Source of the DNA: a candidate division WOR-3 bacterium
Lineage (GTDB): Bacteria; Hydrothermota; Tepidihabitantia; Tepidihabitantales; Tepidihabitantaceae
Assembly: GCA_039801225.1 (NCBI GenBank)
Contig: JBDRUH010000002.1
Location: 285-64,284 of the forward strand
DNA: 64,000 bases
Direction: 5' to 3'
The notes under the pieces were generated by a model. That model saw nothing but the letters and a program-made list of their open reading frames with translations. It searched no databases and had not been told where the DNA came from. Position numbers and translations under genes: made by a program. Of this stretch, positions 6,502-61,735 are shown piece after piece (position 1 is the first letter of the stretch; every line of letters starts with the position of its first letter).

Positions 6502-7704
6502 ATGGCAAAGGCAAAATTTGAACGAACAAAGCCGCATGTTAATGTCGGAACCATCGGTCATGTTGACCACGGTAAAACCTGTTTAACTTCGGCTATTACT
6601 AAGGTGTTATCAAAAAAGGGTCTCGCCACCTATATGACCTATGACCAGGTGGCAAAGGCAAGTGAGGCTCATGGTCGTAGAGACGAAACGAAGATTCTCA
6701 CTATTGCGGTATCGCATGTAGAATACCAGAGTGAGAAAAGGCATTATGCCCATATTGACTGCCCAGGACACGCCGACTATATCAAGAATATGATTACCGG
6801 CGCTGCCCAGATGGATGGCGCAATTCTGGTCGTTTCCGCGGCCGATGGACCAATGCCGCAGACCACCGAACATGTGTTACTGGCACGCCAGGTGAATGTG
6901 CCGGCAATTGTCGTGTATCTGAATAAAATTGACCTGGTGGAGGACCCGGACCTGATTGAACTGGTAGAGGAGGAAATCAGAGATATTCTTAACAAATACG
7001 AGTTTCCCGGCGATAAGACACCAATTATTCGGGGTAGCGCCTTGAAGGCACTGCAGGAGGAGTCCGGACCTAATGTGGACTCAATCTGGGAGCTGATTAA
7101 GGCGCTGGATGAGTTCATTCCCGAACCGGTTCGGGATATTGATAAGCCGTTTCTTATGCCCATTGAGGATATCTTCTCCATTACCGGGCGCGGCACGGTT
7201 GTAACCGGTAGGGTGGAACGGGGAATTCTGAAACCGGGCAGCGAGGTGGAAATCGTTGGCTTCGGCAAGCACGATAAGGTGGTGGTAACCAGTATTGAGA
7301 TGTTTCGTAAGGTTCTGGATGACGCCCGAGCCGGTGACAATGTCGGGCTCTTATTGCGCGGCGTTGGTAAGGAGGAGGTGGAAAGAGGTATGGTCGTTGC
7401 CGCCCCTGGTTCTATCAGACCCTATAAGAAGTTTAAGGCCGAAGTTTATGTCCTCACTAAGGAGGAGGGTGGACGCCATACGCCGTTCTTCCCTGGCTAT
7501 CGTCCGCAGTTTTATATCCGGACCACCGATGTTACCGGAACCGTGCAGTTGCCCCAGGGTGTGGAGATGGTGATGCCCGGCGACCATGTTACAATGGAGA
7601 TTGAGTTGATCACCCCGGTAGCGCTGGAGCAAAATTCTAAGTTCGCCATCCGCGAGGGCGGCAGAACTGTCGGCGCCGGAACAGTCGTAGAAATAATTGA
7701 GTGA
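6502..7704 (+). CDS. tuf: Elongation factor Tu
   Basis: 400 aa with [16 protein letters not shown] and NKID G-motifs. AAGGAGG lies upstream of the ATG. Confidence 0.98.
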
Positions 7705-22334: not shown

Positions 22335-23993
22335 TTACTGGCTACCCGGGCACTCGCGGGCAACTATCGGGTCAATACCCTTGTTGCGGTAGGCGTGGTG
22401 GAAGAAGATGTTAAACTCGTTTGCCAGTTTCTTTGCCCGCTCTTCATAGGCTGACCGGTCCTGCCAGGTGTTTTTCGGGTTGAGAACCACCGGGTCGGGC
22501 ACACCCGGGCAGGATCTCGGAATCTGAAGCCGGAAAAAGGGCTCAGATTCGTAATCAACATTCTCCAGTGCACCCTTAAGAATCGCCCGAATGATTTGCC
22601 GGGTAAGGGTGATGTCAATTCTTTTTCCCACGCCGTAAGGTCCACCGGTCCAACCGGTGTTTACCAAGTAAACCTTGGTGTTATGACGGCGCAGTTTCTC
22701 ACCAAGGAGACGGGCGTAAGCATCGGGATTCCGAGGCATAAATGGCTGACCAAAAAAACGGGAAAAGGTGCTCTTGGGTTCAATGATGCCGGTCTCGGTG
22801 CCCGCCAGTTTTGATGTGTAACCGACAAGAAACCAGAACATCGCCTGCTCGTTAGTAAGTTTCGCTACCGGCGGCAGGACACCGTTGGCATCAGCGGTGA
22901 GGAAGATTATCGCTTTGGGATGACCACCAATTGGCGGTGTTTTTATATTACTCAAAAATGATAACGGATAGGAGCCCCGGGAGTTCTCGGTTAAGCGGGA
23001 GTCGCTCAGGTCAAATGTGCCATCGGGATAAATCATCGCATTCTCCACGATTGCCCCGTGCTCCAAATAGGGTGCCTCATGGAAGCAGGCCTGGTAAATC
23101 TCCGGCTCCTTTTTCGGGTCAAGGTTGATCAGTTTCGCATAACAGCCATTCTCAAAGTTGGCAATGCCATCATCAGACCAGCCATGCTCGTCGTCGCCCA
23201 AAAGTTTCCGCTCCGGGTCGGTGGAAAGGGAGGTCTTGCCCGTGCCAGAAAGCCCCAAGAAAAGGGCGATGTCCCCTTCCTGCCCCTCGTTTGCCGAACA
23301 GTGCAGCGGCAGAATCCCCTTTTCCGGTAAGAGGTAGTTCATTACGGTAAACATCATCTTCTTGATGCTACCGCAATACGCCGAGCCGATGATAATTCCG
23401 AGCCGGTGGTCAAAGTCAATGGCGATGACCATTGTGCTCGTTTGGTTGGTCGTGGGCAGACGCCGGAGCCGGCCGGTATAGCGATTGGGGTCAAGGCGGT
23501 CATAGGGAAGGGCGATGAGGATAAACGGCTTCTCGGCAAGAGAGGAACGGTTGATATCCTCAGGCACCGGACAGAACATATTGTCGCAAAAGAGCGCCTG
23601 AAGCGCCCGGTCGGTAATCACCTGAAGCGGTAGGGCGTAACGGACATCGGCACCGACCACCCGTTTGAGTAAATAGAGCCGGGACTTCTTTGCCAGCCGT
23701 TCCACAGCATCGGCAAATATCATATCAAAGGTCTCGGGCGTAATCGGCAGGTTGTTCGGTGAACTCCAGTCAATATTTCCCTCGGACTCCGGTCGCAAAA
23801 CCGTAACCGTATCCTGCGGACTGCGACCGGTGGAGTCACTTGGTGTCCAGGTTGCCAGACAACCACATTTTGCTACCAGCGCCTCCCGATGTTCCACCGC
23901 AAAAGCGATCAACTGCCGGCGACCAGGCTCCTGCTGGATATCCGGGTGGCTCTCAAGAACCTTAGCCAATCTAACTCTAAACTCATCCATCAA
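22335..23993 (-). CDS. pckA: Phosphoenolpyruvate carboxykinase (ATP)
   Basis: 552 aa with the kinase-1a motif GLSGTGKTSLS followed by LLGDDEHGW. Confidence 0.93.
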   Translation of the reverse strand: MMDEFRVRLAKVLESHPDIQQEPGRRQLIAFAVEHREALVAKCGCLATWTPSDSTGRSPQDTVTVLRPESEGNIDWSSPNNLPITPETFDMIFADAVERLAKKSRLYLLKRVVGADVRYALPLQVITDRALQALFCDNMFCPVPEDINRSSLAEKPFILIALPYDRLDPNRYTGRLRRLPTTNQTSTMVIAIDFDHRLGIIIGSAYCGSIKKMMFTVMNYLLPEKGILPLHCSANEGQEGDIALFLGLSGTGKTSLSTDPERKLLGDDEHGWSDDGIANFENGCYAKLINLDPKKEPEIYQACFHEAPYLEHGAIVENAMIYPDGTFDLSDSRLTENSRGSYPLSFLSNIKTPPIGGHPKAIIFLTADANGVLPPVAKLTNEQAMFWFLVGYTSKLAGTETGIIEPKSTFSRFFGQPFMPRNPDAYARLLGEKLRRHNTKVYLVNTGWTGGPYGVGKRIDITLTRQIIRAILKGALENVDYESEPFFRLQIPRSCPGVPDPVVLNPKNTWQDRSAYEERAKKLANEFNIFFHHAYRNKGIDPIVARECPGSQ

Positions 23994-26623
23994 TCAGAAC
24001 TCCTTTCCACTTTTTTCCCGAGTGCGGACTGTGCCGCAACCAGCCGGGCGATCGGCAACCGATAGGGTGAGCAACTCACATAGTCAATACCAAGTTTGTG
24101 GCAGAACTCAATTGTCCTTGGGTCACCACCGTGTTCACCGCAAATACCGATCTTTAATCTCGGATTAACCTTTCGCCCTAAACGCACCGCCATCTGCAAG
24201 AGACCTCCTACCCCTTTGATGTCCAAGGTCTCAAACGGGTCCTCACTCATTACCCCTAACCGCTTATAATCAGGAAAAAACTTCCCATAATCATCCCGGG
24301 AAAAGGCAAAGGTCAACTGGGTTAAATCGTTGGTACCGAAAGAGAAAAAGTCGGCAACCTCGGCGACCTCATCGGCAATCAGCGCCGCCCGCGGCACCTC
24401 AATCATCGTTCCCACCCGGTATGCTACCTTGACACCAACCTCTTTAAAAACCGCCGCAGCAACCTCTTCCACCAAACGGCGCTCATGGGCAAGTTCACGA
24501 GCATCACTTACTAAGGGAATCATTACCTCAGGAAAAACCTTTAACCCCTCCTTCTTCACCTGGCAGGCGGCCTCAAAAATCGCCCGCGCCTGCATTGCGG
24601 TTATCTCCGGATGGATTATTCCCAAACGACAGCCCCGAAAGCCGAGCATCGGATTCACCTCCTCAAGCCTTTTGACCGTATTTAGAACTCGCTCAAAGGT
24701 GACACCCAGTTTCTCGGCGAGCAATTTCATTTGCTCCTCGTCGGTGGGCAGAAATTCGTGGAGGGGCGGGTCAAGGGTTCGGATTGTTACCGGTAGACCG
24801 GCCATCACCCGGAATATAGCCACAAAATCCTCCCGCTGCATCGGCAAGAGTTTATCCAAAGCCTTTTTTCTGCCCTCAGCATCCAGAGCGAGAATCATCT
24901 CCTGCATTACGCCAACCCGGTCCTGGGCAAAGAACATATGCTCGGTGCGACAGAGTCCGATTCCCTCGGCACCAAAATGTCGGGCGCGCTGGGCATCCTC
25001 TGGCGTGTCGGCATTCGCCCGCACCCGGAGTTTTCGGAAATCGTCCGCCCATTCAAGCAAAGCAATAGCCTCACCAGAAAGTTCCGGCTCCACCATCTCA
25101 ACCGCACCAATAATCACCTCGCCGGTTGAACCGTTGATGGTGAGCACATCCCCCTCTTTTAACTCCTGACCGGCTATCCGAATTACCCCGCGCTCATAGT
25201 CCACCTGAATCGCCTCACAGCCGACCACCGCCGGTTTTCCCATTCCTCGGGCAACCACCGCTGCATGGGAGGTGGTGCCACCTGCTGCGGTAAGAATCCC
25301 TTCCGCCTTTGCCATTCCCTTCACATCGTCGGCTGAGGTCTGATGCCGGACTAAAATCACCTTTTTCCCCTGTTCTGTCAGTTCTACTGCCCGATGGGAA
25401 AAGAGCACCAGTTCACCCTTTGCCGCACCAGGCGAGGCAGGAATTCCTCGGGCAGCAACGGTGTATTTTGCCTCAGGCGCAATCGTCTTATGCAACAGCG
25501 TGTTTAATATTTCCGGTCCAATCCGGCTCAGCGCCTCGGCCTTGGTAATTAACCGCTCCCTAACCATATCGGTCGCAATCTTAACCGCGGCTCGGGGAGT
25601 TCGTTTCCCACTCCGGCACTGGAGTATCCACAACCTCCCCTCTTCAACCGTCCATTCAACATCCATCATCTCCCGGTAATGCCGCTCAAGCCGGCTCAGG
25701 GCTTTTGCCAACTCCTGATACACCTCGGGGTAATCCTCCTTTAACCGGGCAATTGGCTGCGGCGTCCTCAGCCCGGCAACAATGTCCTCGCCCTGGGCAT
25801 TAGCAAGATACTCACCATAAAGTTGTCGCTCCCCGCTGGCTGGGTCCCGGGTGAAAACCACCCCGGTTGCCGATGTCGCACCACGGTTACCAAAAACCAT
25901 CGCCTGAACATTCACCGCCGTGCCCCAGTCATCCGGGATGGAGTAAATCCGACGATACTCCTTTGCCCGCGGATTCTCCCAGGACTTGAACACCGCTTCA
26001 ATCGCCAGCCACAGCTGCTCATTTGGGTCCTGGGGAAACTCCCTCTGCGTCCTATCTCGCACAATCGCCTTGAATTTGGCGACAACCTCCTCAAGAGTTC
26101 CTTCAGCAATTTCCCCACGACTAAAGTCCTGCTCTACATCCCGCCAGATTTTTTCAAACTCCTCCCTGCCGGTTTTGAGGACAACATCGCCAAACATCTG
26201 AATCAACCGACGATAGGCATCAAGGGCAAATCGGCGATTATTGGTCCTTCTTGCCAGCCCTTCAACGGTTATGTCATTCAAGCCGATATTCAAAACTGTG
26301 TCCATCATTCCCGGCATTGAGGCTCGGGCGCCCGAGCGAACCGAGACCAGAAGCGGATTTTCCGGGTCGCCAAACCTCCGCCCCATCACCTTCTCAATAA
26401 ACTTTAGTCCTTTTGCCACCTCCCGCTTTAAGCCCGGAACCATCCGACCGTGCCGCAGATAATAGACACAGGCTGCGGTGGTGATCGTGAAACCGGGTGG
26501 CACCGCTAAACCGATGCGGCACATCTCGGCGAGATTGGCACCCTTGCCGCCCAGGATGTCCCTCATTCCTGCCGAACCAGCCGCTTTCCCATTGCCAAAA
26601 AGATAGACCAATTTCTTTCTCAT
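23990..26623 (-). CDS. ppdK: Pyruvate, phosphate dikinase
   Basis: 877 aa with an N-terminal GGKGANLAEM, the phosphohistidine loop GGTTSHAAVVARGMGKPAV and a C-terminal PEP-utilizer TIM barrel (FFSFGTNDLTQ). It overlaps pckA by 4 nt. Confidence 0.95.
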   Translation of the reverse strand: MRKKLVYLFGNGKAAGSAGMRDILGGKGANLAEMCRIGLAVPPGFTITTAACVYYLRHGRMVPGLKREVAKGLKFIEKVMGRRFGDPENPLLVSVRSGARASMPGMMDTVLNIGLNDITVEGLARRTNNRRFALDAYRRLIQMFGDVVLKTGREEFEKIWRDVEQDFSRGEIAEGTLEEVVAKFKAIVRDRTQREFPQDPNEQLWLAIEAVFKSWENPRAKEYRRIYSIPDDWGTAVNVQAMVFGNRGATSATGVVFTRDPASGERQLYGEYLANAQGEDIVAGLRTPQPIARLKEDYPEVYQELAKALSRLERHYREMMDVEWTVEEGRLWILQCRSGKRTPRAAVKIATDMVRERLITKAEALSRIGPEILNTLLHKTIAPEAKYTVAARGIPASPGAAKGELVLFSHRAVELTEQGKKVILVRHQTSADDVKGMAKAEGILTAAGGTTSHAAVVARGMGKPAVVGCEAIQVDYERGVIRIAGQELKEGDVLTINGSTGEVIIGAVEMVEPELSGEAIALLEWADDFRKLRVRANADTPEDAQRARHFGAEGIGLCRTEHMFFAQDRVGVMQEMILALDAEGRKKALDKLLPMQREDFVAIFRVMAGLPVTIRTLDPPLHEFLPTDEEQMKLLAEKLGVTFERVLNTVKRLEEVNPMLGFRGCRLGIIHPEITAMQARAIFEAACQVKKEGLKVFPEVMIPLVSDARELAHERRLVEEVAAAVFKEVGVKVAYRVGTMIEVPRAALIADEVAEVADFFSFGTNDLTQLTFAFSRDDYGKFFPDYKRLGVMSEDPFETLDIKGVGGLLQMAVRLGRKVNPRLKIGICGEHGGDPRTIEFCHKLGIDYVSCSPYRLPIARLVAAQSALGKKVERSSD

Positions 26624-26646
26624 AATCTCCTTTCTTAAAAATTAAC

Positions 26647-26877
26647 TCACCGCCAGCGCCGAAAGAGCAGATTAAGAATCAAAGTCAATAAAATTGAGAT
26701 AACGAGCATTGACACAATCGGAATATAGATAACTAAATTGGGGCGCTGGATTAAAATATCGCCGGGCAGACGCGGCGCGCCCAGCCGGCTAATGAAAAGT
26801 AGCAACAACCCGAGGAAAAGGAAAATCCCGCCCAAAAGAATCAAAAGCCGTCCCAACACTGATAGATTACCCATCAC
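26647..26877 (-). CDS. DUF2905-family small membrane protein
   Basis: 76 aa with two TM helices and RLPGDILIQRPN between them. Confidence 0.65.
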   Translation of the reverse strand: MMGNLSVLGRLLILLGGIFLFLGLLLLFISRLGAPRLPGDILIQRPNLVIYIPIVSMLVISILLTLILNLLFRRWR

Positions 26878-27112
26878 TTTTCTCTACTTGATTAGACGCC
26901 AGAAATCCGGCAACAATCTCCTTTGCCTGGGCAAAGTTCTCCTCCGCAACCAGCACCTCACCCCAGTGCGGTCGCATCATCTGTGCCACCCCGTCATAGG
27001 CGGGAATTTGGAAGGAGTGAATCAGCGCCGGAATGCCATTCTGTTCCAAAAGGTCGCGAATTGCATTCGCCATTAACTCATTTTCTACTTGACAAACCGC
27101 CATCAATGCCAT
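26867..27112 (-). CDS. DUF2007-like putative signal-transducing protein
   Basis: 81 aa with E..MANAIRDLLEQNGIPALI..., a pattern recalled for DUF2007. It overlaps the DUF2905 gene by 11 nt. Confidence 0.5.
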   Translation of the reverse strand: MALMAVCQVENELMANAIRDLLEQNGIPALIHSFQIPAYDGVAQMMRPHWGEVLVAEENFAQAKEIVAGFLASNQVEKSDG

Positions 27113-27204
27113 AGAACCAAAATTATAACAAACCGCTCTGAAAAATCAAAATTTATTTTTTACTGACTTCTCTTTCTCACCGGTCAAAAAATTTGCCGCC
27201 TTAA

Positions 27205-27480
27205 GTTTTAAACTCTCCTGTTAACTCTAATCTTACTTTCGTTGTAAAAATCGTCGAAGATTCCCTTTTGAGCCCTCTTGTTAAAGCCGATTCGCCATCG
27301 TTTTTTGACCTTATTTTTAATAATGAAATGGGCAATAAAAGAAGCATTAGTAAAAAACCATCTTTAAAGCCCGATTTTACAACCACTTATGCAGAAAATC
27401 CTCCCTTTAAACTTACCAACAAGTCTAAAAACGAGTCCGGAAAGGGTTTTACCACCCTAGTGCTGGAGTGGACCGCCCCC
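27205..27480 (+). repeat. 276-nt dispersed element, copy 1 (candidate MITE or ncRNA)
   Basis: The 72-nt right-hand core (27409..27480) matches 61357..61428 at 68/72 positions. The AT-rich left part shares collinear blocks with copy 2 (GTTTTAAACTCT, TAATCTTA, GTTGTAAAAA/CTTGTTAAAA, TAAAAAACC). Confidence 0.75.
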
Positions 27481-27645
27481 CATTTAACTATCCTCTGAAA
27501 AACACAAAGGCTTAAATAATTGCATTTTAATAATTTATGTTGATTTAAGGAGATGGGGAAAAATTCCTCTGCTCCCACCCGGAGCGAGCAAAGAAACGGT
27601 CCGGGTTGAACTATTCCTTGAGCAAAAACCAGCCTGTCCGGTCAA

Positions 27646-28210
27646 TCATTTTTTATCACTACATACTGGGGTAAACAGACTTATTTCACCTAACTGCTGT
27701 CTTACATAACTCTTAACTCTTTTGCTTCTCTTTTTTAACGAGATTTCCTTTTGCTCTAATTCCGCCGAGTCGGCAGGCAGAATAAAGGCATCTTTTATCT
27801 TCTGCCAGTCCTTATCTCTAATGGTTATCACATCATCAAGGAATTCGCTGACATAACAGCCATTGATAATAGTTGGTTCGGTTTCAGCAAGTTTCATTTT
27901 TGTGATTTCCACATATTTCGGGTCAATATCAATACCAATATACCGCCTGCCCAGTTTCTTTGCCGCAACTGCGGTTGTTCCTGTCCCGATAAACGGGTCA
28001 AGGATGATATTAAATTTTGCCCCGGTATTTTCTAAAAGTTTCGTCTATTTTTAGTAATTCTGCCTTCTTAAATTTCGAGCCTAGCAAGTGCCATAATACC
28101 CTAGGTTCAATATATCCATCTCGGTACAGGTCGATAATAATTTTCAATTTGGTTCTTTTGCGAGATTTATCTTGCTTTTTTCTTTTATTGCCTAGTTTTT
28201 CCATCATCAA
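27646..28210 (-). pseudogene. Frameshifted C-terminal remnant of a beta-class N4/N6 DNA methyltransferase
   Basis: Hand translation of 27913..28044 gives TKLLENTGAKFNIILDPFIGTGTTAVAAKKLGRRYIGIDIDPKYVEI, which is motif I followed by GIDIDP, continuing into track ORF 27646..27912. The upstream 66-aa ORF (28010..28210) is in another frame. No DPPY/NPPY motif occurs anywhere. Confidence 0.6.
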
Positions 28211-28773
28211 TCTTCCTCGTTAGAAAAAAATAATCTTTCCCACGTTTCCTTATTTTGCCAGATTTCAATTACTGATTTATGCCATGTTTTATCCTCATGT
28301 TCAGAGATGATATGCTTTACAAGTTTCCGTATCGGTTTAGTAAATTTAATGTTGATGCGCGGGAGGAATTGTATTCTTGAAACTTTACCGAGCCGCTTAG
28401 TAGATCTCAGCCACTCTACAAGTTGTTCTAAAAATTCTCCTGTATTTCCAAGCCCCAGTTGCTGGCGAATGAAAGGCAACGCTTTCGTCATTACAACAAT
28501 ATTTTCTGGTAACAGGACAAAATAAAGCCAATAGTCTCGCTCGAAAAAAAGCTTATCGATGGCTGTTAATCCGTTTATTGCTATCCAATTATCTGAACGT
28601 TCCATTGTTTTGACTTCTATTTTACGAACTTCGCCTTTTTTGTTAGTAGAAATACCATTAAACCCTGATGTCCGTTTTACCAACTCAATTCTGCAGCCTC
28701 GAAAAGTCTCTACTGAGCAGGTAAGCCCAAGCCCAAGTTTTTCGATCGTAGCCCCGTGACGAGTGGCGGCCAT
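28207..28773 (-). CDS. PD-(D/E)xK-like nuclease-fold protein (restriction-endonuclease or DUF3883-like core)
   Basis: Intact 188-aa ORF containing the segment GFNGISTNKKGEVRKIEVKTMERSDNWIAINGLTAIDKLFFERDYWLYFVLL. This resembles the G.D..(n)..IEVKT..(n)..Y.LY.V nuclease core, although the first acidic residue is not obvious. Confidence 0.45.
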   Translation of the reverse strand: MAATRHGATIEKLGLGLTCSVETFRGCRIELVKRTSGFNGISTNKKGEVRKIEVKTMERSDNWIAINGLTAIDKLFFERDYWLYFVLLPENIVVMTKALPFIRQQLGLGNTGEFLEQLVEWLRSTKRLGKVSRIQFLPRINIKFTKPIRKLVKHIISEHEDKTWHKSVIEIWQNKETWERLFFSNEED

Positions 28774-30271: not shown

Positions 30272-30833
30272 GATAATAGTTTCTTTGGTACTCTTGCCGC
30301 TCAGCGGTTTTTTGTCCGGTTCGCTAATGTTTTCCTTCTGGTTTGGGCTTTGGCGCGGTAAGGACATAAGAAAGGTGGGTGATGGCAACCCGGGCGCGGT
30401 CAACGCCTTTAAATCTGCTGGACCTCTTGTCGGCACGCTCGGGCTACTTTTTGATTTTCTTAAGGGTGCACTGCCGGTCACTTTCGGTTACTGGTATCTT
30501 CATATCTCCGGAATTGCGCTGACCAACCTGATTGTCGCCCCGGTTCTCGGTCATGCCTTTTCACCCTGGCTGAGATTCCGAGGCGGAAAGGCGCTGGCAG
30601 TAACATTCGGGGTCTGGTCAGGAGTAACGCTCTATCAAGTGCCGGTTTTAATGGGCGCAACTCTTTTCTTCAGCCGTTTTGTTCTCCGTATCCGTCAGGA
30701 CGAAATTTGTGTTCTTTTAGCGCTCTTGGCGATGATGGTTTTTGTTATCCTGGTGTATCATTCACCCCCGCTTACTCTCGCGGCGATTTTGAACGCACTG
30801 ATTGTCGCATACAAGCATCGCGCAGAACTTTAA
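30261..30833 (+). CDS. plsY: Glycerol-3-phosphate acyltransferase PlsY
   Basis: 190 aa, polytopic, with a GDGNPGAVNAF motif and FDFLKG. Confidence 0.88.
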   Translation: MDLKIIVSLVLLPLSGFLSGSLMFSFWFGLWRGKDIRKVGDGNPGAVNAFKSAGPLVGTLGLLFDFLKGALPVTFGYWYLHISGIALTNLIVAPVLGHAFSPWLRFRGGKALAVTFGVWSGVTLYQVPVLMGATLFFSRFVLRIRQDEICVLLALLAMMVFVILVYHSPPLTLAAILNALIVAYKHRAEL

Positions 30834-59455: not shown

Positions 59456-61057
59456 GTGCTCAAGCAATGGAAAAATAAATTTGTCCTCCTCGTAACTCTC
59501 ATCGGTGCAGTGTTAGCCGAGGATTCACTCAACTGTCGTGAGTTGGGTAACTGGCCCTTCAGCGCCGCTAACGCGGTAGCGATAGACCCCACAAGGAAAA
59601 TTGCCTTTCTTGGCTCCGGTGGCGGAGTTTACATCCTTGATATCTCTAACCCTAATCAAATAAAAAAAATCTCTGAAGCGCTCCATACCCGGGGAATTGT
59701 CAATAACCTCTTCTACAGCGACCACCGGCTATATATTGCCACGGGCACAGGAGTGGAAATTTGGGAGATAACTACGCCAGAAAATCCAAAACTTCTTAAT
59801 AGATTCAATACCAAGGGAAAAGCCGAAGATGTGGTAGCGGTCAATAAATTTGCCTATTTGGCAGATGGCTATTCCGGTCTAAAGGTAATAGATGTCTCCA
59901 AACCGGAAAAACCGGTTGAAATCGGCTCCTATGACACACCAGACTATGCCAATGGTGTGGCGATTTCGGGTAAAACTCTCTATTTGGCAGACGGCTATTC
60001 CGGTCTGCGGATTATAGATGTCTCCAACCCCCAAAAACCGGTTGAAATCGGCTCCTATAACACACCAGGATTTGCCTTGGACTTGGCAATTCTAAATAGA
60101 TTTATCTATGTTGCTGATAGAGAAAGCGGTATGCGGGTGATAGACATATCTCGCCCTCGGAATCCTGTTGAAAAAGGAGAGTTCAAAACCCCGGGTGAGA
60201 CTTTTCGTGTGGCAATTTCCGGCAATCTCGCCTATGTCGGCAACAGGTATGCCGGTCTGCGGATTATAGATATCTCTGACCCTCGCAACCCGGTGGAACT
60301 TGGCTTCTGTGACACTCCCGGTCTCTCGTATGGGGTGGCTGTTTCAGACAAACTTGCCTATGTCGCAGACGGCGAGAGCGGTCTGCGAATAATAGATGTC
60401 TCCAACCCGCAAAATCCGGTTGAAATCGGTTATTATGACACACCAGGCTTCGCCGAGGATGTTGTGGTTTCAGGTAATTTTGCCTATGTTGTTGACTTTG
60501 GCGCGGGATTGCGGGTAATAGATATCTCCGACCCAAAAAAGCCGTTTGAAGTTGGCTCCTGCGATACACCCGGTGGCGCCTATGATATCATAGTTATAGG
60601 TAACATCGCTTATATTGCGGACTATGATGCCGGATTACGAGTAATAGATATTTCCGACCCTAAAAATCCGGTTGAGGTAGGCTACTACGACACCCCTGGT
60701 TTCTCCTATGGCGTTGCCCTCTCCGATAATTTCGCCTATGTTGCTGATGGCAAATCTGGTTTGAGGATAATTGATGTCTCAAACCCAAAAAAGCCCTTTG
60801 AAATAGGGCATTATCAAACCCCGGGTTTGGCTTATGGTATTGCTGTCTCCGGGAAATTCGCCTATGTTGGTAATAGAGAACCCGGGTTATTGGTGATAGA
60901 TGTCTCAAACCCCAAAAAGCCCTTTGCGGTCGGACATTATAATACTCCAGGGCTTGCCTGTTGCGTTACAGTTTCGGGCAATATTGCCTATTTGGCGGAT
61001 GTGAAAGCCGGTCTGCGGATAATAGAGTTTTATGGCCCGAGTGCTAAGAGCAACTAA
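59456..61057 (+). CDS. LVIVD-repeat beta-propeller protein (secreted, no T9SS CTD)
   Basis: A signal peptide and about 11 tandem ~43-aa units of the form GLRIIDVSNPQNPVEIGYYDTPG.A.GVAVSGN.AYVAD. Confidence 0.8.
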   Translation: MLKQWKNKFVLLVTLIGAVLAEDSLNCRELGNWPFSAANAVAIDPTRKIAFLGSGGGVYILDISNPNQIKKISEALHTRGIVNNLFYSDHRLYIATGTGVEIWEITTPENPKLLNRFNTKGKAEDVVAVNKFAYLADGYSGLKVIDVSKPEKPVEIGSYDTPDYANGVAISGKTLYLADGYSGLRIIDVSNPQKPVEIGSYNTPGFALDLAILNRFIYVADRESGMRVIDISRPRNPVEKGEFKTPGETFRVAISGNLAYVGNRYAGLRIIDISDPRNPVELGFCDTPGLSYGVAVSDKLAYVADGESGLRIIDVSNPQNPVEIGYYDTPGFAEDVVVSGNFAYVVDFGAGLRVIDISDPKKPFEVGSCDTPGGAYDIIVIGNIAYIADYDAGLRVIDISDPKNPVEVGYYDTPGFSYGVALSDNFAYVADGKSGLRIIDVSNPKKPFEIGHYQTPGLAYGIAVSGKFAYVGNREPGLLVIDVSNPKKPFAVGHYNTPGLACCVTVSGNIAYLADVKAGLRIIEFYGPSAKSN

Positions 61058-61128
61058 ACCTTTCTCGGACCCAAGACATTTAAATTTAGAATTTGCTTCC
61101 CTGATTTTTAAAAAATTTTCCACCTTCG

Positions 61129-61428
61129 GTTTTAAACTCTATTTTTACCTTTAATCTTATTTTTCTTGTTAAAACCAAAGTAATTTTCCTTTTTGCCTTT
61201 CTTTTTAAGTCTGCTCTTTAACCGCATTTTAACCCTCTTTTTGGTTCTAAACTTAGCGTTGAATAAAAAACCGCTCCATCCAACCTATCTAGACTATTTA
61301 TTACAACTATCCCTTCACTTGATTTTCTCTTTTAATTTAACTGTGATTTTAACATCAAACTTAACAACAAGTCCAAAAACGAGTCAGGAAAGGGTTTTAC
61401 CACCCTAGTGCTGGAGTGGACAGCCCCC
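61129..61428 (+). repeat. 300-nt dispersed element, copy 2 (candidate MITE or ncRNA)
   Basis: See copy 1. The core 61357..61428 is 68/72 identical to 27409..27480. Confidence 0.75.
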
Positions 61429-61559
61429 AGGCAAAACTGTCTTCAGGTTAAGTTATTTAATTACGACACTTAACTTAATTTTAGCCATCAGAATTTTGTG
61501 TATATATAAATACACTTAGCCTTAACCATTCTTTCCTTTGCGTGCTCCTCGCTCCCTCT

Positions 61560-61632
61560 CATTGCGCGCCTGAGCGATAACGAGGGCGTGGCAATCTCCT
61601 CAGTGAGATTGCTTCGCTTCTCTCGGAATAAC
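61560..61632. repeat. Inverted pair of GAGATTGC..-type REP-like motifs
   Basis: The reverse complement of 61560..61600 (GAGATTGCCACGCCCTCGTTATCGCTCAGGCGCGCAATGAG) faces 61604..61632 (GAGATTGCTTCGCTTCTCTCGGAATAACC). Confidence 0.65.
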
Positions 61633-61735
61633 CCGTTCCGCGCGGAGCGAGGAAACACTAGGTGAGGGGCGTGATAATCTCAGTTTTTTACAACATAAGT
61701 TATGAGGCAAGGCTTTAACAATAACAAACAAATCT

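What the first reader, a model, noticed from the sequence alone, without database searches (positions are those of the whole stretch)
27205..27480. 276-300-nt element present twice, with a 72-nt core at 94% identity: candidate MITE or structured ncRNA
27409..27480 and 61357..61428 differ at only 4 of 72 positions (AAACTTA(C/A)CAACAAGTC(T/C)AAAAACGAGTC(C/A)GGAAAGGGTTTTACCACCCTAGTGCTGGAGTGGAC(C/A)GCCCCC). The preceding ~200-230 nt are AT-rich, indel-rich but collinear, and punctuated by TTTAA-type motifs.

The core can form AGGGU-UUUACC-ACCCU and CCAC..GUGG helices. Neither copy has a consistent relationship to flanking genes: copy 1 lies between minus-strand genes, and copy 2 lies after the LVIVD gene. 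An autonomous small element is therefore more likely than a UTR. There are no terminal inverted repeats and no transposase nearby.
Basis: seen in the sequence. Interest (0 to 1): 0.6.

Follow-up and report, generated by a model that had tools for sequence, protein, structure and literature searches.

The report
Multicopy head-plus-12-base-array noncoding element
The two look-alike stretches are two of about 26 copies of a roughly 440-base non-coding element in a hot-spring WOR-3 bacterium: a conserved "head" joined to about 23 twelve-base units kept in strict register, always laid in the direction of neighbouring genes, matching no described RNA or repeat family, and of unknown function.

Summary
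In detail: the two 72-nt stretches differ at 4 positions. The interpretation needs revising.

**What it is.** The genome (1.5 Mb, candidate division WOR-3) holds 26-28 copies of a ~440-bp intergenic element. Read on the window's minus strand, a full copy runs:
- an AT-rich hairpin;
- a conserved TTGAGT-N17-TAACTT promoter-like pair;
- a G-run/C-run hairpin inside a ~40-nt nearly invariant block;
- about 23 twelve-base units in strict phase, with indels only in multiples of 12.

Copy 1 is an atypical copy that lacks the promoter-like module.

**What it is not.**
- It is not coding.
- It is not a folded RNA, apart from local hairpins.
- It has no Rfam match.
- It has no terminal inverted repeats and no transposase partner.

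**Relatives and selection.** A ~132-nt version of the head occurs 21-24 times in two species of another WOR-3 genus and is absent from their congeners.
- An orthologous copy is 79% identical between those two species. The surrounding spacer is only 46-54% identical.
- Where both neighbours point the same way, the element points with them in 20 of 22 cases.

**Best reading (confidence about 0.4).** It is a selected, self-contained non-coding transcription unit whose unstructured, phase-locked array acts as a lattice for an oligomeric protein.

**Rivals.** Selfish repeat DNA, a DNA-level binding array, and a Rho-loading pad.

The parts
61127..61390 (-). Copy 2: array of 22 twelve-base units in strict phase. 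The plus-strand unit is YYRWTYTTAMMN. The plus strand is G-poor (12% G).
   Evidence: phase information is 2.96 bits against a shuffled null of 0.043 +/- 0.011. The single-copy z-score is 9.0. The 12-mers are printed there; no frame shows a synonymous excess.
61391..61402 (-). Copy 2: 23rd and best-conserved unit (AGGGTTTTACCA). It lies in phase with the array. The box TTTTACCACC is at 61395-61404.
   Evidence: The phase was worked out from model position 36, the array anchor. The box sits at the same offset (+40) in 22 copies.
61388..61428 (-). Copy 2: nearly invariant ~40-nt block (GGAAAGGGTTTTACCACCCTAGTGCTGGAGTGGACAGCCCCC).
   Evidence: alignment of 26 copies; median pairwise identity is 0.93, against 0.58 for the array.
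61411..61430 (-). Copy 2: G-run/C-run hairpin (CTGGAGTGGACAGCCCCCAG). It is the counterpart of the GGGGG-loop-CCCCC hairpin in the related genus.
   Evidence: 86% of cells are paired. There is no covariation because the bases are nearly invariant.
61450..61455 (-). Copy 2: -10-like hexamer (TAACTT on the minus strand).
   Evidence: The block is conserved in own copies (A2) and in 39 copies of genus g12. The fusA promoter of the same genome is TTGACA-N17-TAACAT. The E. coli-consensus scan does not flag it.
61473..61478 (-). Copy 2: -35-like hexamer (TTAAGT here; family consensus TTGAGT), 17 nt upstream of the -10-like hexamer.
61498..61515 (.). Copy 2: AT-rich hairpin GTGTAT-ATATAA-ATACAC. The third pair covaries (G-C, U-A, A-U).
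   Evidence: partner-shuffle control, 9 of 2000 shuffles reach the observed value; pair counts; compensatory change between orthologous copies of G046 and G047.
61516..61521 (.). Copy 2: right boundary word TTAGCC. Similarity between copies ends here or passes into unrelated GC-rich REP-like repeats.
27203..27442 (-). Copy 1: array of 20 twelve-base units. This copy has a 24-nt deletion relative to most copies, so the phase is kept.
   Evidence: 24-column gap. (z = 7.6; 12-mers printed).
27443..27482 (-). Copy 1: 23rd unit plus the invariant block and hairpin. TTTTACCACC is at 27447-27456.
27483..27520 (-). Copy 1: alternative right end (CATTTAACTATCCTCTGAAAAACACAAAGG...). It replaces the promoter-like module and the AT hairpin, and is shared only with the copy on contig C9.
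   Evidence: 83% identity to C9 out to +111.

Best explanation
Each copy is a self-contained, non-coding, direction-sensitive unit made of a conserved head and a phase-locked array.

**Layout on the window's minus strand.**
- The head carries an AT-rich hairpin.
- Next comes a sigma-70-type promoter-like pair (TTGAGT-N17-TAACTT).
- Then a G-run/C-run hairpin embedded in a ~40-nt invariant block.
- About 23 units of exactly 12 nt follow, in fixed register with the head.

**Proposed mechanism.**
- The head promoter, or read-through from the upstream gene, transcribes the minus strand.
- The product is a purine-rich, unstructured RNA of about 330 nt.
- The invariant 5' block nucleates an oligomeric or filament-forming protein, and the 12-nt units space it.
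- The element therefore acts as a multivalent scaffold or titrating lattice, present at ~26 loci.
- Copies arose by past spread of a modular DNA repeat and are now held by selection.

**Shown.**
- Copy number and modular anatomy.
- The strict 12-nt phase.
- Absence of coding and of a global fold.
- Conservation above the spacer background.
- Orientation lock with neighbouring transcription.
- Presence of the head in a second genus.

**Inferred.** Promoter activity, the transcript and its strand, the protein partner, and the function.
For: **Family and anatomy.**
- There are 26-28 copies, each about 440 bp with sharp limits.

**Array.**
- The 12-nt phase information is 2.96 bits against a null of 0.043. 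25 of 26 copies have z-scores of 6-14.5; the divergent C8_33804 copy scores 2.1. Harmonics appear at periods 6, 18 and 24.
- Indels are 12 or 24 nt.
- The best-conserved box lies exactly in phase as unit 23.

**Not coding.** No synonymous excess in any of six frames, and at least 1.8 stops per copy in every frame.

**Unstructured.** There is no consensus fold.

**Strand asymmetry.** The plus strand is 12% G, which points to a single-strand function.

**Head.**
- The -35-like and -10-like blocks sit at a 17-nt spacing. They are among the most conserved words in own copies and in 39 copies from genus g12.
- The genome's fusA promoter has the same type of -10, TAACAT.

**Selection.**
- Between G046 and G047 the orthologous copy is 79% identical. 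Flanking spacer is 46-54% identical and coding sequence 88%.
- The AT hairpin shows a compensatory change between those orthologues.
- Own copies are 75-92% identical, yet 24 of 26 are full length.

**Orientation.**
- Between co-directional genes the minus strand is sense in 13 of 13 cases in g12 and 7 of 9 in the own genome.

**Array is a true module.** One G046 copy (L070) carries a different 12-nt phased array on the same side of the head.

**Weak RNA hint.** Metatranscriptome contigs lie on 60975-61482 of copy 2. None lie on 61493-61727, although DNA runs pile up there.
Against: - No strand-specific RNA data could be obtained. The RNA contigs are unstranded, have depth 2-7, and are no deeper than on neighbouring genes. 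One contig reaches 40 nt beyond the predicted start.
- The promoter-like pair fails an E. coli-consensus scan, because TAACTT scores 3 of 6.
- In g12 many downstream genes have their own consensus promoter between the element and the gene.
- Most g12 copies have a head but no array, so head and array may have separate roles.
- Copy 1 and the C9 copy keep the array and block but lack the promoter-like module.
- No candidate binding protein has been identified. CsrA is absent.
- The distribution is patchy: five of seven g12 species have no copy. That fits selfish DNA as well.
Confidence: 0.4

Rival explanations
1. This is selfish, non-autonomous repeat DNA, MITE-like in the broad sense or a mosaic like BOX, ERIC or Correia elements, with no cellular function. 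It spread in the past by an unknown or lost enzyme. The orientation bias comes from selection against copies whose hairpins or promoter disturb neighbouring transcription.
For: - It is multicopy and confined to intergenic DNA.
- Its distribution is patchy: it is in G000, G046 and G047, but absent from five congeners of G046/G047 and from most of the family.
- In the same divergent intergenic region, G046 and G047 carry the element in opposite orientations.
- It is modular, with the head found with or without an array and with alternative ends.
- Ten copies lie at contig breaks among other repeats.
Against: - No TIRs, and no target-site duplication was seen.
- No ORF, and no Y1 transposase in any carrier genome.
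- There are no near-identical copies; the best pair is ~92% identical.
- Despite that age, 24 of 26 copies are full length with a ~40-nt invariant block.
- Indels preserve the 12-nt phase.
- The orthologous copy is 79% identical, against 46-54% in neighbouring spacer.
Confidence: 0.25
2. This is a double-stranded DNA protein-binding array. A strong site in the head (TTTTACCACC) nucleates cooperative binding of a DNA-binding protein along 22 weaker sites phased every 12 bp. The protein could be a nucleoid-associated protein or, speculatively, DnaA in a datA-like titration role.
For: - The strongest box is in phase with the array, and the units read as degenerate copies of it (TTTTACCA, TTTTAACA, TTTTACAA).
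- The dnaA promoter of this genome has TTTACCACA next to two TTTTCCACA boxes, two of them 12 bp apart. That is the densest DnaA-box cluster in the assembly.
- One copy has TTTTACCACA exactly.
Against: - None of the 94 canonical TTWTNCACA words in the genome lies in an element.
- TTTTACCACM (A or C as the last base) also occurs 39 times outside the elements, mostly as TTTTACCACC. WTTACCACC is 6-7 times over-represented genome-wide, probably because of coding (GGT GGT AAA), so the resemblance may be chance.
- A 12-bp step is out of phase with B-DNA.
- The strong purine/pyrimidine strand asymmetry is not expected for a duplex site.
- The array of L070 in G046 has quite different units.
Confidence: 0.12
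3. This is a Rho-loading pad on the plus-strand RNA. The array, read on the plus strand, is a long rut-like region: U- and C-rich, G-poor, unstructured, with a pyrimidine pair every 12 nt. It would trap and terminate transcription running antisense to the neighbouring genes. Copies in the sense direction would be polar and would be lost.
For: - Plus-strand composition is T 36%, C 21%, G 12%, with YY at the first two positions of each unit.
- There is no consensus structure.
- The L070 array of G046 is likewise C-rich and G-poor on the same strand.
- Rho is encoded in all eight genomes tested.
- The elements lie antisense, in this sense, to co-directional neighbours in 20 of 22 cases.
- Rut sites are described as enriched in U and YC, poor in G and in structure, with one 5'-YC pocket per Rho subunit (PMC9499579).
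Against: - In the cryo-EM structure summarised in PMC12360218, each Rho subunit holds 5 nt separated by 4-5-nt linkers. That gives about 9-10 nt per subunit, not 12.
- There is no evidence of plus-strand transcription.
- Most g12 copies have no array yet show the same orientation lock.
- An invariant head and a strict register over 23 units are not needed for a rut site.
Confidence: 0.1
4. This is a structured small RNA gene family. The core would fold into conserved helices that carry the function.
For: - Local hairpins exist.
- The AT hairpin covaries.
Against: - No Rfam match at gathering or permissive thresholds.
- RNAalifold energies are only -7 to -13 kcal/mol over 215-447 columns, with no shared fold.
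- Core helices show no covariation beyond shuffles.
- Four of five candidate helices in g12 score the same with partners swapped between copies.
- Single-sequence z-scores are modest on both strands.
Confidence: 0.05
5. This is a decayed or recoded family of small protein genes: a lysine-rich peptide on the minus strand, or a hydrophobic peptide on the plus strand ending ...VLPP*.
For: - Collinear copies have indels in multiples of three.
- Two frames give protein-like translations with some shared stop positions.
Against: - Every frame has at least 1.8 stops per copy.
- The synonymous fraction equals the column-shuffled null in all six frames (z between -2.0 and +0.6).
- Codon-phase entropy differs by only ~10%, which the 12-nt repeat explains.
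Confidence: 0.02

Closest known systems
BOX elements of Streptococcus pneumoniae and similar mosaic intergenic repeats (ERIC/IRU, Correia/CREE of Neisseria). From my own knowledge; not compared by sequence here.
   Same: - Dispersed and confined to intergenic DNA, with tens of copies per genome.
- Modular build: a fixed module plus a repeated internal module.
- Hairpin-forming parts and promoter-like words that can affect neighbours.
- Patchy occurrence among related species.
   Different: - No terminal inverted repeats and no TA or other target duplication seen.
- The repeated module is 12 nt long, ~23 units, in strict register with the head.
- Copies are old but kept intact.
- Orientation is locked to neighbouring transcription.
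CsrB/RsmX/Y/Z-type protein-titrating RNAs.
   Same: - A non-coding RNA of a few hundred nucleotides that offers about 20 repeated short binding motifs to an oligomeric protein.
- This is what the best explanation proposes the element works like.
   Different: - CsrA is absent from all eight genomes tested.
- The motifs are not GGA in hairpin loops.
- Spacing here is exactly 12 nt, whereas CsrB spacing is irregular.
- There are ~26 gene copies instead of one or a few.
- Transcription has not been shown.
Rho utilisation (rut) regions.
   Same: On the plus strand the array is U/C-rich, G-poor and unstructured, with regularly spaced pyrimidine pairs. This matches the rut descriptors in PMC9499579.
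   Different: - Natural rut sites have no strict period, no conserved head and no multicopy family.
- The structural footprint is about 9-10 nt per subunit (PMC12360218).
- The strand that fits is antisense to the neighbours.
"Leader plus phased 12-nt array" elements noted by earlier agents of this scan in other hot-spring genomes (e1-5218617, e1-1172651, e1-940297, e1-1915292). These are unpublished, unchecked AI notes.
   Same: - A conserved head or G-rich hairpin followed by about 8-28 units of exactly 12 nt.
- Non-coding, multicopy and lineage-restricted.
- A pyrimidine pair at the start of each unit on one strand.
   Different: - There is no sequence similarity to this family.
- The unit words differ.
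- Some of those families are linked to a regulator or capsid-like gene. No linked gene was found here.
REP/REPIN elements with RAYT, and IS200/IS605-derived hairpin elements.
   Same: - Hairpins near both ends.
- No inverted terminal repeats.
- Orientation bias.
   Different: - The two hairpins are unrelated to each other.
- No Y1 transposase in any carrier genome.
- The element is far larger and carries the phased array.

Membership tests
MITE (miniature inverted-repeat transposable element) | Terminal inverted repeats | tested here: not met
   The left end (..GACCAAAA in g12; AAAWTTT..TTTTAAACTC in own copies) and the right end (..ACTTAGCC) are not inverted copies of each other. The only inverted word, GGCTAAGT...ACTTAGCC, is internal and does not covary.
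MITE (miniature inverted-repeat transposable element) | Target-site duplication, with empty and filled sites | tested here: inconclusive
   No direct repeats were evident at the boundaries. The orthologous loci recovered carried either the same copy, an opposite-orientation copy or unalignable spacer. No clean empty site was found.
MITE (miniature inverted-repeat transposable element) | A related autonomous element or transposase in the genome | tested here: not met
   No longer version was found among the 26 copies. Y1_Tnp is absent from 8 genomes. The Y2_Tnp search was uninformative because the control did not ring.
Protein-coding gene family | Open frame and excess of synonymous change | tested here: not met
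Any Rfam family | Covariance-model match | tested here: not met
   With gathering thresholds over the whole window, only tRNAs matched. The permissive scan of copy 1 gave only chance-level hits with E of 0.8 or higher.
Structured ncRNA in general | Conserved secondary structure supported by covariation | tested here: not met
   The one exception is the 6-bp AT hairpin.
CsrB/Rsm-type sponge RNA | Cognate CsrA/RsmA protein encoded | tested here: not met
   PF02599 is absent from all 8 genomes, and the controls ring.
Rho-dependent terminator (rut region) | C>G and U>G bias and low structure on the transcribed strand; Rho present | tested here: met
   Plus-strand composition, no fold, Rho in 8 of 8 genomes. 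Transcription of that strand and Rho dependence are not testable with these tools.
DnaA-box cluster (oriC, datA or DARS-like) | Several canonical TTWTNCACA boxes | tested here: not met
   0 of 94 genomic matches lie in elements. There is only a near-box, TTTTACCACC.
Sigma-70 promoter | -35 and -10 hexamers at a 16-18-nt spacing that match consensus | tested here: inconclusive
   TTGAGT-N17-TAACTT is conserved in two genera and resembles the fusA promoter TTGACA-N17-TAACAT. It falls below the threshold of the consensus scan. Activity was not tested.
Intrinsic terminator | GC-rich stem followed directly by a T run | tested here: not met
   The scan finds none in either window copy. In g12 the G5/C5 hairpin is followed within 0-7 nt by TTTTGG on the minus strand (by eye). 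This is suggestive only.
REP/RAYT or IS200/IS605-derived element | Y1 (HUH) transposase and matching hairpins at both ends | tested here: not met
   The two hairpins (G5/C5 and GTNTAT/ATNAC) are unrelated.

The most novel reading that the evidence does not exclude
The element belongs to an undescribed class of bacterial non-coding elements: a conserved nucleating head followed by 20-25 units of exactly 12 nt. This class recurs, with unrelated sequences, in several hot-spring lineages. The units would act as a molecular ruler, a phase-locked single-stranded lattice (RNA or transiently single-stranded DNA). A ring-shaped or filament-forming protein with a 12-nt step would polymerise on it from the head. 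About 26 such lattices per 1.5-Mb genome would buffer or organise that protein.
Probability: 0.25. Interest if true: 0.85.

Novelty: new variant of a known kind. Interest (0 to 1): 0.62.

Why it matters
**Scale.** About 0.8% of a streamlined 1.5-Mb genome is spent on ~26 copies of a non-coding element.

**Signs of constraint at each copy.**
- The register of the array is policed: indels occur only in whole 12-nt units.
- The head is nearly invariant.
- The direction follows neighbouring transcription.

**Why that is unusual.** No described repeat family or RNA family has a strict 12-nt lattice joined to a conserved head.

**What it would open up.**
- If the lattice binds an oligomeric protein, it would be a new kind of scaffold or titration device in an uncultivated phylum (WOR-3).
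- It would make the recurring "phased 12-nt arrays" of hot-spring genomes experimentally approachable, because the head gives a handle for pull-downs and reporters.
- If instead it is selfish DNA, it is an unusually well-preserved and direction-sensitive one.

Tried and rejected
**Explanations rejected or weakened.**
- Coding on either strand is rejected.
- No Rfam family matches.
- A global RNA fold of the head or of the whole element is not supported.
- Five candidate helices in the g12 head were tested by swapping partners between copies. Only the AT hairpin beats the control.
- HUH transposases: Y1 is absent. The Y2 search was uninformative.
- A CsrA sponge is rejected because there is no CsrA.
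- The DnaA-box array is weakened, with no canonical boxes in the elements and the near-box common elsewhere.

**Searches that found nothing.**
- BLAST of the conserved 200 nt in 40 relatives found nothing.
- Exact-pattern scans of genome contigs and metagenome contigs found nothing.
- Only a profile search reached the g12 copies.

**RNA evidence.**
- Unstranded metatranscriptome contigs are sparse and no deeper than on neighbouring genes.
- The one raw-read RNA run does not contain the organism.

**Empty-site search.**
- The fusA locus in four WOR-3 relatives is alignable only inside the gene.
- Three G046 loci compared with G047, G045 and G020 gave a shared copy, an inverted copy and a gene replacement, but no clean empty site.
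Full report
**1. The observation**

- Window 27409-27480 and 61357-61428 align without gaps and differ at 4 of 72 positions. The ~230 nt to their left are collinear.
- This is not a two-copy coincidence. nhmmer finds 26 copies of the core in the 1.50-Mb, 72-contig assembly in which the window is contig C2:285-64284. A sequence-only covariance model finds 28.
- The genome is a candidate division WOR-3 bacterium. Its EF-G is 80-81% identical to EF-G of WOR-3 MAGs. The DNA occurs in hot-spring metagenomes.

**2. True extent and anatomy**

*Extent.*
It ends at ...TTTTGTGTATATATAAATACACTTAGCC.
- Conservation also continues ~250 nt to the left.
- All-against-all BLAST of 3-kb neighbourhoods puts the limits at about -250 and +170 relative to the core start, a unit of ~440 bp. 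Pairwise identities are 75-92%.
- Beyond the right limit lie unrelated GC-rich REP-like repeats. Ten copies sit at contig ends.
- Window copy 1 and the copy on contig C9 are atypical. After GCCCCCC they share a different ~35-nt continuation and lack the right-hand module.

*The left part is a 12-nt array.*
- With all 26 copies anchored only at the core and no alignment, position-specific composition modulo 12 carries 2.96 bits. Shuffles give 0.043 +/- 0.011.
- Period 12 stands out, with harmonics at 6, 18 and 24. Single-copy z-scores are 6-14.5 for 25 of 26 copies.
- The plus-strand unit is YYRWTYTTAMMN. There are 22 units.
- The next 12 nt (AGGGTTTTACCA) are the best-conserved unit and lie exactly in phase.
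- Indels between copies are 12 or 24 nt.
Median pairwise identity of that block is 0.93, against 0.58 for the array.

**3. What it is not**

- *Not coding.* Two frames look protein-like. But every frame has at least 1.8 stops per copy. The fraction of synonymous differences equals a column-shuffled null in all six frames, with z between -2.0 and +0.6. The slight three-base periodicity follows from the 12-nt repeat.
- *No Rfam family.* There are no matches.
- *Not a globally folded RNA.*
  - RNAalifold gives -7 to -13 kcal/mol over 215-447 columns and no shared structure on either strand.
- *Not a classical MITE.*
  - No terminal inverted repeats and no evident target duplication.
  - No longer autonomous copy.
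  - No Y1 transposase in any of eight genomes. The Y2 search was uninformative.

**4. Relatives**

- BLAST and exact-pattern scans found nothing outside the genome.
- A sequence profile of the conserved 143 nt found hits elsewhere in the family:
  - 21 copies in G046;
  - 24 copies in G047, both species of another genus (g12) of the same family;
  - weak hits in G005 and G001;
  - none in five other g12 species.
- The shared part is the right-hand ~132 nt, which I call the head.
- In 39 aligned g12 copies the head reads, on the plus strand:
  - ..GACCAAAA;
  - GGGGG-loop-CCCCC;
  - AAAAnTG..TTTTGGCTAAGTTAcgAAAcTGCGAnAnnTAACTCAATTTyACCCC..TGAATTT;
  - GTNTAT-N6-ATNAC;
  - TTAG(CC).
- Of five candidate helices, only the AT-rich hairpin beats a control in which 5' and 3' halves are swapped between copies (9 of 2000). 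Its third pair occurs as G-C, A-U and U-A.
- Most g12 copies have no array. One G046 copy (L070) has a z of 11.3 and one further copy a z of 7.5. Both carry a 12-nt phased array on the same side of the head, with a different, C-rich and G-poor unit. Head and array are therefore separable modules with a fixed arrangement.

**5. Signs of selection and of past mobility**

- At one locus G046 and G047 share an orthologous copy. The element is 79% identical, the non-promoter spacer on either side 54% and 46%, and the flanking coding sequence 88%. The AT hairpin differs by a compensatory G-C to U-A change.
- At another locus the two species carry the element in opposite orientations in the same divergent intergenic region.
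- At a third locus G047 has a small secreted-protein gene where G046 has the element.
- Together with the patchy distribution, this shows a repeat that has moved or been rearranged. Its copies, once in place, evolve under constraint.

**6. Orientation**

They include EF-G, RF1, trigger factor, AsnRS, a pilin, NifS, endonuclease V and a T9SS protease.
- Direction, however, is consistent. Where both neighbours run the same way, the window's minus strand of the element is the sense strand in 13 of 13 cases in g12 and in 7 of 9 in the own genome. That is 20 of 22 overall.
- Copy 2 of the window is one of the two exceptions. Copy 1 follows the rule: DUF2007 gene 26867-27112 and pyruvate phosphate dikinase 23990-26623, both on the minus strand.

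**7. Reading the head on the sense (minus) strand**

- The order is: AT hairpin, TTGAGT, 17 nt, TAACTT, ~12 nt, G-run/C-run hairpin, then the array.
- In g12 a TTTTGG run follows the hairpin. In the own genome the invariant block and then the array follow it.
- The two hexamers are among the best-conserved words in both genera. Variation spares TTG, A2 and T6.
- The genome's fusA promoter is TTGACA-N17-TAACAT.
- The pair falls below the threshold of an E. coli-consensus scan.
- In g12 many downstream genes have their own consensus promoter between element and gene. The element is therefore not simply those genes' promoter.

**8. RNA evidence**

- Two hot-spring metatranscriptomes held as unstranded contigs cover 60975-61482 of copy 2. 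They do not cover 61493-61727, although DNA runs pile up to 61539.
- Depth is 2-7 and no higher than on neighbouring genes.
- The only raw-read RNA run lacks the organism.
- Transcription and its strand remain unproven.

**9. Mechanism**

*Constraints to explain.*
- The array is unstructured.
- It is strongly strand-asymmetric: 12% G on the plus strand.
- It keeps a 12-nt register over ~270 nt with respect to an invariant head.

*Best reading (confidence 0.4).*
- A step of 12 is out of phase with B-DNA but natural for a protein oligomer on a single strand.
- With the promoter-like pair pointing into the array, and the sense orientation, I favour a non-coding minus-strand transcript. Its head would nucleate an oligomeric protein and its units would space it.
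- This works like a titrating or scaffold RNA, but it is not a member of the CsrB family, because CsrA is absent.

*Rivals.*
- Selfish repeat DNA (0.25).
- A duplex DNA-binding array (0.12). The in-phase TTTTACCACC resembles the TTTACCACA box beside two TTTTCCACA boxes at the dnaA promoter. But no canonical DnaA box lies in any element, and the word is common elsewhere.
- A Rho-loading pad on the plus strand (0.10). Composition fits rut descriptors (PMC9499579) and Rho is present. But the structural footprint is ~9-10 nt per subunit (PMC12360218), and array-less copies show the same orientation lock.
- A structured sRNA (0.05).
- A decayed gene (0.02).

**10. Comparison and novelty**

- As a kind, this is a dispersed modular intergenic repeat, like BOX, ERIC and Correia elements (from my own knowledge). 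It fails the defining tests for MITE, REP/RAYT, Rfam families, CsrB-type RNAs and DnaA-box clusters.
- The new feature is the strict 12-nt lattice tied to a conserved head, under evident constraint and direction-locked.
- Earlier agents of this scan noted "leader plus phased 12-nt array" elements with unrelated sequences in other hot-spring genomes. Those notes are unchecked and share no sequence with this family. They do suggest a recurring architecture.
- I file it as a new variant of a known kind. There is a 0.25 chance that it represents a categorically new class of protein-ruler elements.

Noticed in passing
window 61540-61680; also right of most other copies (e.g. C28:16600-16750, C4:17700-17800): GC-rich REP-like palindromic repeats (CCCTCGGCTCCGTCATTCCGAGC / GTCATTGCGAGC ... 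GAAGCAATC) follow the element in most copies. They probably cause the contig breaks seen at ten copies.
   Followed up: partly
G000 contigs C64:~6640-6690, C3:~30680-30730, C1:~26640-26700, C11 (left of four copies): A separate shared word with a perfect palindrome, GGATTCCCAAGGAAAATGTCATATTGACACTTTC (TGTCA-TAT-TGACA), lies ~100-170 nt beyond the array in three or four copies. It could be an operator or another small repeat.
   Followed up: no
L154 (G000:C15, dnaA region) 2299-2480 and 1-969: The dnaA promoter carries four tandem DnaA boxes: TGTGGAAAG, TGTGGAAAA twice and TGTGGTAAA, two of them exactly 12 bp apart. A 970-nt AT-rich gene-free stretch downstream of dnaA, with TTCTCCACA and AATTACCACA, is a candidate oriC.
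   Followed up: partly
G000:C1:69017-69900 (upstream of fusA): fusA is not preceded by rpsL-rpsG here. It has its own TTGACA-N17-TAACAT promoter only ~13 nt before the ATG. The element upstream is bracketed by two copies of a REP hairpin (GCAAACCTNAAGGTTTGCCCTACA) and by heptamer-type repeats (GGACGGATGACGG..).
   Followed up: no
whole genome G000: The 9-mer WTTACCACC occurs 170 times, against ~23 expected. 148 of these lie outside the elements. TTTTACCACM (A or C as the last base), mostly TTTTACCACC, occurs 39 times outside the elements, against ~6 expected for the two 10-mers. This probably reflects GGT-GGT-AAA (Gly-Gly-Lys) coding usage, but it was not checked.
   Followed up: no
window 61269-61456 and 61525-61668 (DNA run X1): Community DNA contigs join 61269 to 61456 (skipping 186 nt) and 61525 to 61668 (skipping 142 nt). 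This suggests variant copies or strains in which the invariant block, or the spacer after the element, is absent.
   Followed up: no
L127 (G047:C169:3800-5800) versus L083 (G046:C16): Between the same two flanking genes, G046 has the repeat element and G047 has an extra ~220-aa gene. The gene has a signal-peptide-like start and a T9SS-tail-like end.
   Followed up: partly
L066-L085 (G046), downstream of the elements: Genes of this WOR-3 genus have near-consensus sigma-70 promoters (TTGACT/TTGACA-N17-TATAAT) 20-60 nt before their start codons, so standard promoter prediction works in this phylum.
   Followed up: no
window 27646-27912 and 28207-28773 (minus strand): Two ORFs to the right of copy 1 (88 and 188 aa) have no Pfam match.
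   Followed up: no
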